Source: a virus. From it: a DNA stretch of 64,000 bases. Below are positions 1,313 to 23,252 of the stretch, piece by piece. The stretch covers positions 45,137 to 109,136 of IMG/VR virus record IMGVR_UViG_3300004463_001172; one strand, given 5' to 3'. The notes beneath the pieces are model-generated. The model saw only the letters and a list, made by a program, of their open reading frames with translations, made no database searches and was not told where the DNA came from. Numbering within the stretch: the stretch's first letter is position 1; every line of letters starts with the position of its first letter. A program made the position numbers and the translations under genes.

Positions 1313-1380
1313 AGGCTAGTCAAGCGGAGCGGTGCTTAGCTGAGTCAAGCCAAGTCGAGCAAAGCCCAGCATAGCAAAGG
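1313..1380 (+). repeat. Pentamer array, about 14 x AGY-NN (RCT-NN on minus strand)
   Basis: AGG CT AGT CA AGC GG AGC GG TGC TT AGC TG AGT CA AGC CA AGT CG AGC AA AGC CC AGC AT AGC AA AGG. Confidence 0.85.
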
Positions 1381-1385
1381 ATATT

Positions 1386-1424
1386 ACGTATAGGCTGGCA
1401 ATCGGTATTTGCTAGCCTATACGT
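1386..1424. other. 16-bp inverted repeat / strong hairpin next to the pentamer array
   Basis: ACGTATAGGCTGGCAA-tcggtat-TTGCTAGCCTATACGT, one G-T pair. Confidence 0.85.
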
Positions 1425-17338: not shown

Positions 17339-17965
17339 CTAGCATTCAATGGGCTCTCTTATTTTAGGGACTTCCTCTTCTAGGCTCATTAAGAACCCAA
17401 GGGTTGTTTCAAGTCTTGTATGCCCCATTTCCCTCTGTAATAGACGGAGTACTCTCAGCATAAATTTGAGGTCCATGCCCTCCTTTCTCGCCAGCCGAAT
17501 GGCTCGCGTTTTCAGTAGAGACATTGGCACCACGCGCCCAGATAACCCAGAAGCCTTCGCTGCACTTGATACAATCTGCCATATCTGAGTTCGGCTTATA
17601 GGTGCCGAAAACCGGCCTTTACGGCTACCCGCCATAAACGTCTTTGGGCCAAACCCTGCACCAACCCGTTTCCGTAACTCCGTAATCCATGTATGTGTTA
17701 CAAGTATTCCATCCGGTGATAGTGTGACAAAAGGCTGCATGAGCCCATCAGTATTTATGACGTCTCCAACCTGAATTTTGGCTACCTCGCTATTCCGATA
17801 TCCCAATTCCAGCATCACATGAATAATCCATTGATCTCGCCGCCAATATTCAGAAGACTTTACGCTTGAGAGAACTGACTTAACCTCTAGACGTGTAAGG
17901 CTTTTAGCTGGACCAGGAAGGTTCTTCATGACATTTAGTTTCCTCCTATGTGTGATATAGGGCAA
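17339..17965 (-). CDS. Tyrosine recombinase-fold protein with degenerate active site
   Basis: RD...LGYRNSE...DV and LQREMGH...TT present; HxxR reads MSLL and the catalytic Tyr reads Phe. Confidence 0.75.
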   Translation of the reverse strand: MPYITHRRKLNVMKNLPGPAKSLTRLEVKSVLSSVKSSEYWRRDQWIIHVMLELGYRNSEVAKIQVGDVINTDGLMQPFVTLSPDGILVTHTWITELRKRVGAGFGPKTFMAGSRKGRFSAPISRTQIWQIVSSAAKASGLSGRVVPMSLLKTRAIRLARKEGMDLKFMLRVLRLLQREMGHTRLETTLGFLMSLEEEVPKIREPIEC

Positions 17966-19765: not shown

Positions 19766-20218
19766 TCAGAACGGCACATCATAAGGTGCGATCTCAACAC
19801 TCAGCCGCCCATGATCCATCTCAGTGGTTTCCTCCCAGGCCCGTTTTAAGCGACGATAGGGCGATAACTGACACCAGTCACAATGACAGGAATCCGCGCT
19901 TTCCTGCTCGGTATCCCCGTCATTTTTTGCCACTATTCCTGCCGCTGTTGATATCGTACAGGCCTTGGCTGGAGCCGGTTCAGACTGGAATATCGCGGAA
20001 AAGTTCGCGGAATGATGTGATGGGGATGCCTCCGCGTTATGTTCCGCGATATTCCGCGTTATTTTCCGCGATATTTTCCGCGATTGATGGGTCGTTAAAT
20101 GCCGGTGGAGCGCATCGGCCGAGACCTGATACCGCTGCGCAATCTCTTTCGCAGTACCGCGTGCCCGCTCCATCGTAGCTCGATTCGGATGTCGACAAAT
20201 GGAGCATGGGCGTCCCAT
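19766..20218 (-). CDS. Zn-finger/HTH protein resembling small-terminase-type N-termini
   Basis: MGRPCSICRHP.R...EIAQRYQVS.DAL.RH; internal TTCCGCG repeats. Confidence 0.6.
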   Translation of the reverse strand: MGRPCSICRHPNRATMERARGTAKEIAQRYQVSADALHRHLTTHQSRKISRKITRNIAEHNAEASPSHHSANFSAIFQSEPAPAKACTISTAAGIVAKNDGDTEQESADSCHCDWCQLSPYRRLKRAWEETTEMDHGRLSVEIAPYDVPF

Positions 20219-20340
20219 CCCGTTCCCTCTCTCACACCCGCTAGGTGACCCGATCTCGGGTGACCCTGGCTCTTGGTATGTCCCAAGGCCTAATCGTGTC
20301 ACCTGGCGTCTCTATGACCATATACTCTACGTCATTCCCG

Positions 20341-20398
20341 ATGCATACTTTGCGCGTGTGCGCTATTCATACATAGCGCTATTGCGCAAAGTATGCAT
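20341..20398. other. Nested palindrome (15-bp outer and 7-bp inner stems)
   Basis: ATGCATACTTTGCGC...GCGCTAT-tcatac-ATAGCGC...GCGCAAAGTATGCAT. Confidence 0.85.
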
Positions 20399-20497
20399 TC
20401 TCTCTGGGTATCTGACACCCACACCATCTCTCTAACATATTGTTCATAGAGAGAATAATCGACTATTTCCCATAATATGTATTCTGTTACGTCGTCC

Positions 20498-21409
20498 TTA
20501 CTCCCCGTCGAGGGCCGGTCGCAAGGATTCGACATCCACGACGCTTCGGCATCGACAGCTAATGGCGAGTGCGGCCGGTAATCTAGGATCGTGAGGCCCC
20601 TTCGCTTGATAGGTCGCTCCATCCGTATCCTGCAAGGTAAAGTCGCCCGTCAGCACCGGACGTTGGGCTAACAACGCCGGTCGGCGGTGTGCCGGTCTCA
20701 CCCGCGCATCGCCCGCATTGAGCCATTGCTTGCGCGGGGTGAGTTCCGGAAAGACCTGAGAGGCTCGCTGCTGTAGTTGCTCCTGTCGGCTCTGGGTGGC
20801 CAAGCTGAACGACCGATTGAGTTCCGTGCGGGTTATCACCTCCGCACGTGTGGCGATAGACCCGAAGCGTCCCGCCGCATCAGCTTGGGTCCGCAGCACC
20901 TCGGCCACCTCACGCTGGATCTGAAACGGGGTTCGCCCGCCAAGTGTCCCTAATTGTAGTTCGGTTGAAATTTTTCGGATGGCATCAGCACTCATGTTCG
21001 TAATAAGCTCTGCTTGATACCCCTGAAGAATACTGACGAGCCTTGGTTCAATGCTCGGAATCGCCGCCATGATATCTAAACCAACAGCCACGAGCGGCTG
21101 ATCAACACTTGTCAGACCGAAGTCCCACATGTGGCGTGATTGCTCATCAAAATAACGATGGTACGTGCGGGAAAATTCGGCCATAGTTTCTTCAACTGAT
21201 CGTTGTAGTCGTGGCAGGAATTGGGCAAGATAGCTGCTTTCATCAACTTCACTGATGGCATCGATAATCCGCCGCCTCGCATCGGCCAATAGTTGTAAAA
21301 CTCGTTTAACGGATGCCTCTTCAAGGTTATCAACCTCCTTAAGCAGCGCTGCCAATGTATCAGCATAACGCTGCTCAGGAGATTGAGCCGCAAGTAAGCG
21401 GTTAGTCAA
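20498..21409 (-). CDS. Minor head / head morphogenesis protein (Mu F / SPP1 gp7-like)
   Basis: RAEVITRTE, KQWLNAGDARVRPAH, P.DP.LPA...I.CRC. Confidence 0.88.
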   Translation of the reverse strand: MTNRLLAAQSPEQRYADTLAALLKEVDNLEEASVKRVLQLLADARRRIIDAISEVDESSYLAQFLPRLQRSVEETMAEFSRTYHRYFDEQSRHMWDFGLTSVDQPLVAVGLDIMAAIPSIEPRLVSILQGYQAELITNMSADAIRKISTELQLGTLGGRTPFQIQREVAEVLRTQADAAGRFGSIATRAEVITRTELNRSFSLATQSRQEQLQQRASQVFPELTPRKQWLNAGDARVRPAHRRPALLAQRPVLTGDFTLQDTDGATYQAKGPHDPRLPAALAISCRCRSVVDVESLRPALDGE

Positions 21410-21414
21410 AGTAA

Positions 21415-21499
21415 AACCCCTAGCTCACCTCACCATAACTAACCATACCCCACCCCAACTAACCCAACCTCGCCAAAGCCGACCGCACCAACCCTCACC
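21415..21499 (-). repeat. Pentamer array, 17 x GGT-NN
   Basis: GGT GA GGG TT GGT GC GGT CG GCT TT GGC GA GGT TG GGT TA GTT GG GGT GG GGT AT GGT TA GTT AT GGT GA GGT GA GCT AG GGG TT. Confidence 0.9.
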
Positions 21500-21650
21500 G
21501 GATTTTCTGTCGTTCCGCTTTTTCTCGTATCGATAACTCAATAATAGCCGTCATTGAGATACCATTTGCTTCAGCTAACGCTTTTAAGAGCCGTTGCGCT
21601 TCAGCACTCAAACGGAACGTCATGGGCTTAGATTCACCAGTCTCAGCCAT
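21495..21650 (-). CDS. Ribbon-helix-helix (CopG/Arc-like) regulator, probably leaderless
   Basis: MTFRLSAEAQRLLKALAEANGISMTAIIELSIRE; TTGACG-18-TATAAT ends 6 nt before ATG. Confidence 0.8.
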   Translation of the reverse strand: MAETGESKPMTFRLSAEAQRLLKALAEANGISMTAIIELSIREKAERQKIR

Positions 21651-21725
21651 ACCAATATTATACATACTGAGACTGTACAACGTCAATACAATTCTTGCGG
21701 TGTCAAGGCTTCACGGATCAGCAGC

Positions 21726-23252
21726 CTACCGGCTATAGCGCTGTTCCCGTTCGGTGACGTCTCGCCCCAGCACTCCTCCTGGCCGCTGTCGTGACGCGGC
21801 CGCCAAGCCCCGCGCCTGGTCTAGCTGGAGTGGTGTCTGGGGCTCCGGTAATATTTCTGGTTTAGGAGCCTCGGGAATCGTCTGGGCCTCCTCGGGGAGT
21901 CCTTCGGGTAAGGGCGGTAGCTCAATCCCCAGTTCCGCCGCCACGCGCCGGGCCAGACTGGCCGCCTCCGCTTTCGTAAAGTAGTGCTGTTGCTCCCCGA
22001 CCAGCACCGCCGCCGTTACATCTTTGAGCGTCGTCGCCGCTTGCGCGAGGTCTGGCGTACTAACTTCCGAGGCTTCAACCGTAATCTGCTTGGCCTCGTT
22101 ATTCAGTGTTTTGGGCAGACGTCCGGCCAGTATGGCTTGATCCCGCACAAACTCCAAGATCGATTGCATCATTGCCTTCACTTCTTTTTGGCGCTTACTG
22201 AGGGACTTTAGAATGGGCAGGGATTGGGAGTCGAGGGTGGATCGATTCGTATCGGCTCCAGAAAATACCCATGCCTCTGGGAACCCATTGGAAATCATGG
22301 TTTGCATCCGCATCGTGCGGGCTTGCTCGCTGATATCCGTGGCATGGAGGTCAGGCGCAATCGCTTGCCAGTGCACATTCTGGTTATGGGCGCGCATGCT
22401 ACTGCCCCGAGGAATCGAGTTGCGCGCGAGCCAGGCTTTGATCTGGTCTTCGCTCATATTATCAAGCGTCACATCCCAGAGCATATCCGTATAGTAAGTA
22501 GCGCGTTCGGCCTGTCCGAACAAGAACCGGTCGTAGAGGTCGAGCCAATCAAAGCTACAGAGGAGGTCCGAGCGCCCCCGGGCCGCATTGCTCAGGTTAT
22601 TAATCGCAAAGAAGAAGGTTCCGACCGGCCGCTCGTCACTGACCCCTCGCGTGCCGATGAGCAAGCCGTGCGTGGGCGAGCGCTCTTGCTCATCCACATG
22701 AATAATAGGGATGGGTGGGGGCTCAAGGCCTTGGCGTGATTTGAGGTGCACGGCGGTGAGGATTTCGGCGTTATTCGGGTCTATCGCCACATGCTTGACA
22801 TTGGCAGGGTCGATATAGCCCAGCCGTACCCGGCCATCCGATGCCCGGACAAAGGCCGGCCAGATACTTTCCCCAAAGATAAAGAGCTGCCGCACTCGCT
22901 TGAATTGCTTGATCGGCCAGGCGTTGATGGGGTCATGCCAGAACTCGTCCAAAACCTCCTGGAGCGCGTCATTCCCGGCTTTATAGGTAAAGCCTTCGCC
23001 GACGACAAAATCCACTAAGATTTCGATCATCCGGTGCGCGAGGGGGTTGCTATCATACTGCCAGGCCGCAATCTCGAACATGCGGTCTTGCTCAAGAGGC
23101 TCTAAGCTGCGGTCCCCTTGGCTGGTGAGGCTCCGGTACGCCCGTGCGGGATTAAAGTTATCGCCCGCCCAATCTGGATCAGGTCCCAGCAGTGGCCCCG
23201 CTTCGGTCAGCCGCACGCCTTGGGACGTGAGCCACGTCTGCATCCAACTCAT
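21726..23252 (-). CDS. Portal protein
   Basis: NPLAHR..EI..DFVVGEG, FGE, RGRSDL; position after terL. Confidence 0.88.
   Translation of the reverse strand: MSWMQTWLTSQGVRLTEAGPLLGPDPDWAGDNFNPARAYRSLTSQGDRSLEPLEQDRMFEIAAWQYDSNPLAHRMIEILVDFVVGEGFTYKAGNDALQEVLDEFWHDPINAWPIKQFKRVRQLFIFGESIWPAFVRASDGRVRLGYIDPANVKHVAIDPNNAEILTAVHLKSRQGLEPPPIPIIHVDEQERSPTHGLLIGTRGVSDERPVGTFFFAINNLSNAARGRSDLLCSFDWLDLYDRFLFGQAERATYYTDMLWDVTLDNMSEDQIKAWLARNSIPRGSSMRAHNQNVHWQAIAPDLHATDISEQARTMRMQTMISNGFPEAWVFSGADTNRSTLDSQSLPILKSLSKRQKEVKAMMQSILEFVRDQAILAGRLPKTLNNEAKQITVEASEVSTPDLAQAATTLKDVTAAVLVGEQQHYFTKAEAASLARRVAAELGIELPPLPEGLPEEAQTIPEAPKPEILPEPQTPLQLDQARGLAAASRQRPGGVLGRDVTEREQRYSR

What the first reader, a model, noticed from the sequence alone, without database searches (positions are those of the whole stretch)
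21415..21650. GGT-NN pentamer code array transcribed behind a leaderless RHH gene, inserted between portal and head genes
Seen: 17 perfectly phased 5-mers with a near-fixed GGY triplet and variable dinucleotides (GA TT GC CG TT GA TG TA GG GG AT TA AT GA GA AG TT). The array starts at the RHH stop codon and ends GGGGTTTT, and the module has its own promoter. Slippage would copy whole units; here only positions 4-5 vary freely, as in a scaffold plus information-bearing code. Knowledge (recalled, not verified here): GGY-NN repeat RNAs have been reported as non-contiguous guides for phage RAMP/Cas7-like proteins (VIPR). Inference: this is a guide-like ncRNA aimed at a competing element. No RAMP-like gene with a G-rich loop is visible in the window, so the array is an orphan or its effector lies elsewhere.
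Basis: partly seen in the sequence, partly recalled or inferred. Interest (0 to 1): 0.85.

Follow-up and report, generated by a model that had tools for sequence, protein, structure and literature searches.

The report
Anti-VIPR guide RNA cassette in phage
A small inserted cassette in a phage head-gene operon encodes a repressor and a five-base-repeat guide RNA of the newly described CRISPR-like VIPR system, and the guide's code spells the most conserved part of rival phages' VIPR protein gene while sparing the phage's own copy.

Summary
The array is real. It has 17 phased pentamers on the minus strand (21499-21415), starts inside the RHH stop codon and ends GGGTT+TT. It is the top 5-nt-periodic tract of the 109-kb virus record.

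Outside the window, at bases 1-570 of the record, lies a 189-aa protein that matches the solved SUSP1 Vipr protein (E=3e-25). Two further arrays follow it and end in the same GGGTT+T unit.

Read by the published one-base-skip rule, the 17 dinucleotides spell E-L-A-R-L-E-W-Y-G-G-(I/M)-Y..., the most conserved block of Vipr proteins. That site is the best hit, in frame, in 23/24 and 74/80 independent vipr loci. None of 1000 shuffled guides reaches this; other skip lengths give nothing. The best natural targets score 27/34; the phage's own vipr scores 18/34.

Close relatives lack the cassette, so it is an insertion.

Verdict: a distal ("solo"-type) vrRNA aimed at rival VIPR systems, coupled to an Arc-like repressor. 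Anti-vipr solo vrRNAs were published in October 2026 for enterobacterial phages, so this is a new member with an unusual architecture. This scan has noted VIPR arrays before on other DNA. Expression, loading and repression are untested.

The parts
21657..21686 (-). Sigma-70-type promoter of the cassette: TTGACG (21686-21681), 18-nt spacer, TATAAT (21662-21657). The predicted transcription start is at or next to ATG 21650, giving a leaderless mRNA.
   Evidence: 11/12 consensus match; 2 sites found against 0.4 expected in shuffles. Sequence.
21638..21675 (.). Perfect 9-bp inverted repeat CAGTCTCAG / CTGAGACTG (arms 21667-21675 and 21638-21646, 20 bp apart). It brackets the -10 box and the start codon and is the candidate operator of the RHH repressor.
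   Evidence: repeat I4, 100% complementary. The operator role is inferred.
21495..21650 (-). Ribbon-helix-helix (Arc/CopG-like) gene, 51 aa from ATG 21650. The stop codon TGA (21497-21495) lies inside pentamer 1.
   Evidence: translation. Pfam RHH_1, E=6e-5, above the cutoff. PHROG 3180, Arc-like repressor; one relative, P0074, 76% identical, with the N-terminus conserved upstream of MTFRLS.
21415..21499 (-). vrRNA-type array of 17 phased pentamers (G1 G2 Y3 N4 N5). The guide dinucleotides are GA TT GC CG TT GA TG TA GG GG AT TA AT GA GA AG TT. The terminal unit GGGTT followed by T is shared with the vipr-adjacent arrays.
   Evidence: array and shared end. (target code).
21407..21421 (-). New translation start of the MuF-like head-morphogenesis gene: TTG at 21409-21407. 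Its Shine-Dalgarno AGGGG (21421-21417) is formed by the last two pentamers. There is no terminator between the array and this gene.
   Evidence: 0 terminator-like sites. PHROG 2468, head morphogenesis, E=1.4e-21.
21683..21736 (-). Decayed remnant of the ancestral 5' end of the MuF-like gene. Its ATG has become ATA; it reads ...LLIREALTPQELY and then a stop. It marks the left edge of the insertion at about 21691. A diverged second copy of these codons (LLAAQSPEQRY) heads the functional gene, and homology with relatives resumes near 21369.
   Evidence: alignment with L003/L004.
21726..23252 (-). Portal protein gene, the upstream neighbour.
   Evidence: PHROG 10963, E=3e-32.
20498..21409 (-). MuF-like head-morphogenesis gene, the downstream neighbour.

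Best explanation
The 21691-21370 segment is an inserted cassette. It carries a promoter, a small Arc/CopG-like RHH repressor gene and, fused to that gene's stop codon, a VIPR guide RNA (vrRNA) of 17 GGY-NN pentamers.

Proposed mechanism:
- The RNA is made from the cassette promoter. Because there is no terminator, it is also made from late-operon read-through.
- Protomers of the phage's own Vipr protein (189 aa, bases 1-570 of the record) bind one pentamer each. They flip out G-G-Y and present the NN dinucleotides.
- The filament reads double-stranded DNA with one base skipped per unit.
- The DNA it reads is the block E-L-A-R-L-E-W-Y-G-G-x-Y (codons about 50-66) of vipr genes belonging to other VIPR systems, with the skipped base on the codon wobble position.
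- Binding blocks transcription of the rival's vipr and so disarms a co-infecting phage or resident prophage.
- The phage's own vipr (EMAKIEFFASVY at this site) differs at 16 of 34 informative positions and is spared.
- The RHH protein most likely autoregulates the cassette through the 9-bp inverted repeat over its -10 box and start.

Shown here by computation: the array, the Vipr homologue, the shared array end, the code match and its statistics, the self-sparing and the insertion. Inferred: transcription and processing, loading onto Vipr, repression, and the RHH role.
For: Array:
- It is real and unique in the record.

Effector:
- P0001 matches PDB 36pp 'SUSP1 Vipr protein' at E=3e-25 over residues 8-187.
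- The residues the structure paper names for G1/G2/Y3 and the skip pocket are kept: H17->H19, K33->K35, R138->R137, W178->W, R179->R, D177->E.
- The AF2 model has pLDDT 94, and Foldseek's top hits are Cas7-family RAMPs (Csm3, type VII Cas7).
- Two arrays follow its stop codon and end GGCAT GGGTT T. Our array ends GCTAG GGGTT TT. Vipr-adjacent arrays in relatives L014, L020, L010, L006 and L009 end the same way.

Target:
- In 23/24 vipr loci from genomes and 74/80 from IMG/VR, the best hit over the whole locus and both strands is the same in-frame site.
- The mean per-locus best score is 21.6/34, against 18.6-18.7 (sd 0.22-0.25) for shuffled guides. 0/500 unit-order and 0/500 base shuffles reach it. 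Skips of 0, 2 and 3 and the reversed guide sit at the null level.
- The best natural sites are L032/L036 at 27/34, with 19/20 in the first ten units.
- The own vipr site scores 18/34, and the best hit anywhere in the own genome is 21/34, which equals the null.

Controls:
- The three other arrays of this genome, and 947 windows from 130 arrays of relatives, do not hit vipr loci above chance.

Insertion:
- The cassette is absent from relatives with 81% portal identity.

Precedent:
- Solo vrRNAs that target relatives' vipr genes, with lower self-match, are described in 10.64898/2026.10.15.759431.
Against: - No transcript, loading or repression data exist.
- No natural target reaches the authors' >=80% identity threshold when all 34 positions are counted (best 27/34 = 79%). 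It passes only if the constant terminal unit is dropped (27/32), which is a post hoc choice.
- Unit 11 (AT) calls for Ile/Met where 75/77 sampled vipr genes have Leu. The exact intended target is therefore unsampled, or the guide has drifted.
- 6 of 17 scaffolds are not GGY.
- The scaffold's third base is T in 14/17 units. The 41 units of the resident arrays never use T (C or A in 39, G in the two terminal GGGTT units). Compatibility with the resident Vipr is therefore assumed, not shown.
- There is no pseudoknot-type 3' tail as in the SUSP1 clade, and no significant RNA structure (z = -1.1).
- No orthologous array was found, so 'conserved scaffold, variable NN' could not be tested across relatives.
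Confidence: 0.7

Rival explanations
1. Trojan or decoy guide. The array is a vrRNA meant to be loaded not by the resident Vipr but by a rival's Vipr. Either it makes the rival effector silence its own gene, or it simply soaks the effector up, as satellite solo vrRNAs do.
For: The scaffold is GGT in 14/17 units. The 41 units of the resident arrays never use T at position 3. Rival-clade loci such as L034/L038 use mostly GGT. Satellites use solo vrRNAs to redirect a helper's Vipr. The cassette is foreign to this backbone.
Against: The terminal GGGTT+T unit matches the resident arrays. It does not match the ends seen in the ELARLEWYGG-clade loci, which end GGATA/GGATG/GGACA followed by gcaatcat.... 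Related Vipr loci mix GGC, GGT and GGA within one array (L027, L035), so T is probably tolerated by the resident protein. The code match to vipr is expected under either reading, so it does not separate them.
Confidence: 0.15
2. Decaying or non-functional vrRNA relic. It was carried in with an RHH moron and is now kept only because its 3' end supplies the ribosome-binding site of the MuF-like gene.
For: 6/17 scaffolds are degenerate. The best natural target scores only 79%. The 3' half of the guide matches poorly. The AGGGG Shine-Dalgarno of the downstream gene lies in the last units.
Against: All 85 nt remain in perfect 5-nt phase without indels. The resident arrays are equally degenerate. 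The first ten units still match a sampled vipr gene at 19/20, which is not expected after drift.
Confidence: 0.08
3. DNA-level element: an operator array for the RHH protein, a G-rich or G-quadruplex regulatory tract, or a chance simple repeat in front of the MuF-like gene.
For: The array abuts an RHH gene. Some RHH proteins (omega, MetJ) bind tandem short repeats. The tract is G/T-rich and contains several GGG/GGGG runs.
Against: The array lies downstream of the RHH gene, not at its promoter, and a perfect inverted repeat sits on that promoter. A 5-bp period with two free positions is not a known RHH operator format. Neither an operator nor a G4 reading explains why positions 4-5, read with a one-base skip, spell the Vipr motif (0/1000 shuffles). 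Neither explains why the array ends like the vipr-adjacent arrays.
Confidence: 0.05

Closest known systems
Solo vrRNAs that target relatives' vipr genes in SUSP1-family (Felixounavirus-like) phages (Lopez et al., bioRxiv 10.64898/2026.10.15.759431)
   Same: Both are stand-alone GGY-NN arrays far from any vipr; that paper calls an array 'solo' when the nearest vipr lies beyond 20 kb. In both, the predicted target under the 1-nt-skip rule is the vipr coding sequence of competing phages, and the self-match is lower than the match to rivals.
   Different: This phage keeps its own intact vipr and adjacent arrays. The Vipr is only about 31-35% identical to SUSP1's. The array is not at a deleted vipr locus but in a roughly 320-bp cassette inserted into the 5' end of a head-morphogenesis gene. 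It is fused to an RHH gene's stop codon and driven by that gene's promoter. There is no 40-nt pseudoknot tail, only a terminal GGGTT+U-run. The target is the mid-gene conserved block (codons about 50-66), not the first codons or the end of the gene.
Type II VIPR systems (Vipr + Vap + vrRNAs; Escherichia phage SUSP1, P. fulva prophage; bioRxiv 10.64898/2026.04.26.720920 and .720927)
   Same: Both have a Vipr homologue with conserved G1/G2/Y3 contacts, vrRNAs of 9-16 or more YNNGG units directly flanking vipr, a one-base-skip code aligned with codon wobble positions, and no self-targeting.
   Different: The resident arrays here use GGC/GGA rather than GGY. No vap gene was recognised next to vipr in the held record. 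An extra guide sits 66 kb away. The 3' end is short rather than a pseudoknot.
Satellite-encoded solo vrRNAs (F5 satellites) that redirect a helper's Vipr to REP elements
   Same: Both are vrRNAs used as a counter-measure against someone else's VIPR system.
   Different: The satellites act by diverting the effector to host decoy sites. Here the code points at the vipr gene itself, and no multi-copy host target was found.
P22 immI-type Arc/Mnt cassettes (small RHH repressor controlling its own promoter and a downstream anti-competitor function)
   Same: Both have a small Arc-like RHH gene at the head of a short transcription unit with an operator-like inverted repeat over the promoter. The downstream product acts on a competing phage's regulation.
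   Different: The downstream product here is an RNA guide, not an antirepressor protein. The analogy comes from general knowledge and was not tested.

Membership tests
VIPR vrRNA (GGY/NN tandem-repeat guide RNA) | At least 4 tandem YNNGG/GGYNN units in unbroken 5-nt phase (typical vrRNAs have 9-16) | tested here: met
   17 units with no indel. G1 is present in 17/17, GGN in 13/17 and strict GGY in 11/17. It is the top period-5 tract of the genome.
VIPR vrRNA (GGY/NN tandem-repeat guide RNA) | Constant scaffold with hypervariable NN, seen across homologous vrRNAs | tested here: inconclusive
   Within the array, positions 4-5 use all bases while positions 1-3 are constrained. No orthologous array could be fetched. 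Relatives L003/L004 lack the cassette.
VIPR vrRNA (GGY/NN tandem-repeat guide RNA) | A Vipr (minimal RAMP with G-loop and thumb) available to bind it | tested here: met
   P0001 lies at bases 1-570 of the same record. It hits the solved SUSP1 Vipr at E=3e-25 with key residues conserved. It has a Cas7-like fold and matches PHROG 4652 at 2e-46.
VIPR vrRNA (GGY/NN tandem-repeat guide RNA) | Invariable 3' tail shared by the vrRNAs of a system (a pseudoknot in the SUSP1 clade) | tested here: inconclusive
   No pseudoknot or significant fold was found. However, the terminal unit GGGTT followed by T is shared with both vipr-adjacent arrays and with arrays of several related loci.
VIPR vrRNA (GGY/NN tandem-repeat guide RNA) | [quoted passage not shown] | tested here: inconclusive
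   The family-wide signal on vipr genes is strong and appears only with skip 1 (0/1000 shuffles). The best single site is 27/34 = 79% (27/32 without the constant end). There is no self-target: the own-genome best is 21/34, equal to the null.
VIPR vrRNA (GGY/NN tandem-repeat guide RNA) | Expressed as a discrete ~100-nt RNA that co-purifies with Vipr | not testable with these tools
   Only a promoter prediction is available.
Solo vrRNA (Lopez et al. definition) | [quoted passage not shown] | tested here: met
   The array is at record bases 66,551-66,635 and vipr at 1-570. The distance is 66 kb, or 42.5 kb if the record is circular.
RHH operator array (omega/MetJ-type tandem sub-sites) | Tandem 7-8-bp sub-sites located in the regulated promoter | tested here: not met
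   The period is 5 bp with two free positions, and the array lies downstream of the gene. The promoter carries a separate perfect 9-bp inverted repeat.
CRISPR array | Direct repeats of about 21-48 bp separated by unique spacers; cas genes nearby | tested here: not met
   No such repeats were found by TRF or by inspection. There is no Rfam hit.

The most novel reading that the evidence does not exclude
The RHH-vrRNA unit is a self-contained, mobile anti-VIPR cassette. It carries its own autoregulated promoter and a guide written against the least mutable block of the Vipr family. It inserts into conserved head genes while rebuilding their start. Because its GGU scaffold differs from the resident GGC/GGA arrays, it may be built to be loaded by the rival's own Vipr, so that the rival effector silences its own gene.
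Probability: 0.2. Interest if true: 0.8.

Novelty: new member of a known kind. Interest (0 to 1): 0.6.

Why it matters
VIPR was described only in 2026. Experimental work and the survey of solo, vipr-targeting guides are so far confined to SUSP1-like enterobacterial phages.

- **The code generalises.** This locus gives an independent, purely computational confirmation that the one-base-skip code holds in a distant Vipr clade (about a third identical). Only skip 1 gives a signal.
- **VIPR-against-VIPR conflict is wider.** It extends beyond Enterobacteria, and a VIPR-positive phage can carry an extra guide against rivals while its own gene has diverged at exactly the targeted codons.
- **The target choice is informative.** The guide is written against the most conserved block of the family, with skips on wobble positions. 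Such a site is hard to escape by synonymous change and may be broad-spectrum.
- **The architecture suggests new biology.** The guide is fused to a repressor gene inside a small insertion that rebuilds the neighbouring gene's start. This suggests that guides can travel as regulated cassettes, and it gives a simple construct to test.

Tried and rejected
- **Rfam, permissive, 20000-23000:** no family.
- **Tandem Repeats Finder:** does not call the array, because only three of five positions are fixed.
- **RNA fold of RHH plus array:** not better than shuffles (z = -1.1), so no tail structure is claimed.
- **Self-targeting:** none. The best hit in the own genome is 21/34, equal to the null.
- **Exact guide sub-patterns in IMG/VR:** units 1-9 and units 9-17 gave 0 hits. 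The back-translated ELARLEWYGG pattern gave 0 hits in IMG/VR. The same code in pentamer form, a search for sister arrays, gave 0 hits.
- **Full pattern with <=3 mismatches in 401 cyanobacterial genomes:** 0 hits. The host is unknown, so this only says 'not found in those searched'.
- **Neighbour-gene idea:** earlier notes on other phages suggested a guide may spell its neighbouring gene in rivals. Tested and rejected here: relatives' portal/MuF loci score 18-19/34 and the own 16-27 kb region scores 20/34.
- **RHH relatives carrying an array:** none in IMG/VR, JGI metagenomes or GenBank phages.
- **RHH as a general Vipr accessory gene:** only one weak RHH-like ORF was found upstream of a vipr (L076, E=0.7), so no claim is made.
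- **Single-sequence AlphaFold of Vipr:** uninformative (pLDDT 46). It was replaced by the alignment-based model.
- **Registers that include the constant Gs:** these trivially match GG-rich arrays and were discarded as controls.

Full report
**Observation**

On the minus strand, window 21499->21415 reads as 17 pentamers in unbroken phase: GGTGA GGGTT GGTGC GGTCG GCTTT GGCGA GGTTG GGTTA GTTGG GGTGG GGTAT GGTTA GTTAT GGTGA GGTGA GCTAG GGGTT, then TT.
G1 is present in 17/17 units, G2 in 13/17, and strict GGY in 11/17.
- Unit 1 contains the TGA stop (21497-21495) of a 51-aa ribbon-helix-helix ORF that starts at ATG 21650. It hits Pfam RHH_1 (E=6e-5) and the PHROG Arc-like repressor family.
- A near-consensus promoter, TTGACG-18-TATAAT (21686->21657), ends 6 nt before that ATG, so the mRNA is predicted to be leaderless.
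- The window is bases 45137-109136 of a single-contig virus record of 109,136 bases. In that record the array is the only place on either strand with >=7 of 10 in-phase GGY.
- It has the highest score of a motif-free period-5 scan. Periods 4, 6 and 7 give nothing comparable.

**Context**

- Upstream lies the portal gene (PHROG 10963, 3e-32). Downstream lies a MuF-like head-morphogenesis gene (PHROG 2468, 1.4e-21). The large terminase lies further upstream.
- Two IMG/VR relatives with 81% portal identity pass directly from portal into the MuF-like gene, with overlapping stop and start codons.
- Alignment shows that our phage keeps a decayed copy of the ancestral MuF 5' end (ATG->ATA...LLIREALTPQELY, then a stop; 21736-21683). 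The cassette follows, and then a second, diverged copy of those codons (MTNRLLAAQSPEQRY...) heads the working gene.
- The new TTG start (21409) uses an AGGGG Shine-Dalgarno formed by the last pentamers.
- No terminator-like site lies between the array and this gene. Late-operon transcripts should therefore also run through the array.

**The kind of element**

The VIPR literature exists and was read.
- Vipr is a minimal RAMP. vrRNAs are 9-16 YNNGG repeats. DNA is read with one skipped base per unit. Natural targets are competing mobile elements (10.64898/2026.04.26.720920).
- One protomer binds per repeat, and named residues hold G1, G2 and Y3 (10.64898/2026.04.26.720927).
- Satellites and VIPR-null SUSP1-family phages carry solo vrRNAs, some aimed at relatives' vipr genes with lower self-match (10.64898/2026.10.15.759431).

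**The effector**

- Bases 1-570 encode a 189-aa protein (P0001). Its only PDB sequence hit is 36pp 'SUSP1 Vipr protein', at E=3e-25 over residues 8-187.
- From that alignment, H17, K33, R138, W178 and R179 of SUSP1 are conserved, and D177 is Glu.
- With a 25-sequence alignment, AlphaFold gives pLDDT 94. Foldseek's best PDB matches are Cas7-family subunits such as Csm3 and type VII Cas7.
- Homologues occur in 130 GenBank phages, including the Felixounavirus group, and in 274 IMG/VR contigs.
- Two arrays of 22 and 19 units directly follow the stop codon. Both end GGCAT GGGTT T. Ours ends GCTAG GGGTT TT.
- Arrays that follow vipr in related loci (L014, L020, L010, L006, L009) end the same way.
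- Arrays of the clade that the guide matches best end differently.
- One contrast stands out. The third scaffold base is T in 14/17 units here, and never T in the 41 resident units.

**The target**

I applied the published rule (NN joined by one wildcard) to the loci fetched for their vipr genes. The top hits all fell at one homologous position inside vipr.
- Read as codons, the guide spells E-L-A-R-L-E-W-Y-G-G-(I/M)-Y-(I/M)-(D/E)-(D/E)-(S/R)-(F/L). This is the most conserved block of the family (alignment), with every skipped base on a wobble position.
- In 23 of 24 loci from genomes and 74 of 80 from IMG/VR, this in-frame site is the best hit of the whole 5-6.5-kb locus on both strands.
- The mean per-locus best score is 21.6/34. 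Shuffled guides give 18.6-18.7 (sd 0.22-0.25). None of 500 unit-order shuffles or 500 base shuffles reaches the real value.
- Skips of 0, 2 and 3 and the reversed guide are at null level.
- A metagenome scan for genes encoding E-x-ARLEWYGG returned ten hits, all vipr genes. The best, L032/L036, match 27/34, with 19/20 over the first ten units.
- At the peptide level, P0021 (ELARLEWYGGLYLSDGL) allows up to 29/34. The phage's own Vipr allows at most 19. Its actual DNA scores 18/34.
- The three other arrays of this genome, and 947 fourteen-unit windows from 130 arrays of relatives, show no such match. One hit reached the threshold against 0.4 expected. The vipr match is therefore a property of this array, not of VIPR arrays in general.
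- Per-unit frequencies show that the guide specifies the W-Y-G-G variant. They also show Ile/Met where nearly all sampled genes have Leu, so the exact rival is not in the collections searched.

**Mechanism**

The best reading is a distal, solo-type vrRNA that the phage's Vipr uses to bind, and so transcriptionally silence, the vipr gene of competing VIPR systems. The phage's own gene has diverged at 16 of 34 informative positions.
- The RHH protein probably autoregulates the cassette. A perfect 9-bp inverted repeat (21667-21675 / 21638-21646) brackets the -10 box and the start codon.
- How the 5' end of the guide is freed from the RHH message is unknown.

Rivals considered:
- A guide meant for the rival's own Vipr (Trojan or decoy). 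The foreign GGT scaffold supports this.
- A decaying relic kept for the ribosome-binding site it provides.
- A DNA-level operator or G-rich element. This does not explain the code match or the shared array end.

**Limits**

- There are no expression or binding data.
- No target reaches >=80% over all 34 positions.
- No orthologous array is available for a conservation test.
- The host is unknown. Named Vipr relatives at about 45-49% identity include cyanobacterial MAGs. 401 cyanobacterial genomes gave no near-perfect site.
The one RHH relative (P0074, 76% identity) and the P0021 gene therefore could not be read.
- The protein index lists P0001 and the RHH on a contig of 130,940 bases, longer than the held record. 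The record may be trimmed.

**Novelty**

VIPR, solo vrRNAs and vipr-targeting guides are published, so this is a new member of a known kind. New here are:
- the clade, about a third identical to SUSP1 Vipr;
- a VIPR-positive carrier with a self-sparing anti-vipr guide;
- the mid-gene conserved-block target;
- the RHH-fused, promoter-bearing cassette inserted into a head gene.

This scan has already reported VIPR-type arrays on other DNA.

Noticed in passing
L001:1-813 (record bases 1-813, outside the window): This is the phage's VIPR core: the vipr gene (1-570), then two arrays of 22 and 19 pentamers (574-683, 718-812). They use GGC/GGA scaffolds, never GGT, and both end GGCAT GGGTT T. Neither array finds a target in the loci held.
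   Followed up: partly
window 1313-1424 (+): A fourth period-5 tract: 14 AGY-NN pentamers on the strand opposite to the flanking genes, followed by a 16-bp-stem hairpin. It fits the 'YNNNG' alternative repeat mentioned in the first VIPR preprint. No target was found above chance.
   Followed up: partly
window 21683-21736 and 21370-21409 (-): The first ~10 codons of the MuF-like gene are present twice. One is a decayed copy close to the relatives' sequence, upstream of the cassette. The other is a diverged working copy after it. This suggests the cassette arrived by recombination with a donor that already had it in front of its own MuF gene.
   Followed up: partly
window 17339-17965 (-): A 208-aa ORF with a C-terminal tyrosine-recombinase (Phage_integrase) match (E=1.7e-7) sits inside the structural-gene region.
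   Followed up: no
window 20031-20084: A 12-nt tandem repeat (TCCGCGATATTT, 4.7 copies) lies inside the 178-aa ORF 19766-20302, which has no family match.
   Followed up: no
L076:2063-2191 (+): A weakly similar RHH-like ORF (tblastn E=0.7) lies about 300 nt upstream of a vipr gene in an IMG/VR contig. It hints that RHH genes may accompany VIPR loci elsewhere.
   Followed up: no
L029:3488-4135 (-), L034:2696-3037 (+): Relatives' vipr loci carry long multi-guide arrays with constant separators, for example ...GGCAG GGATA gcaatcat... or GGATG caattattc. Array ends are therefore clade-specific.
   Followed up: partly
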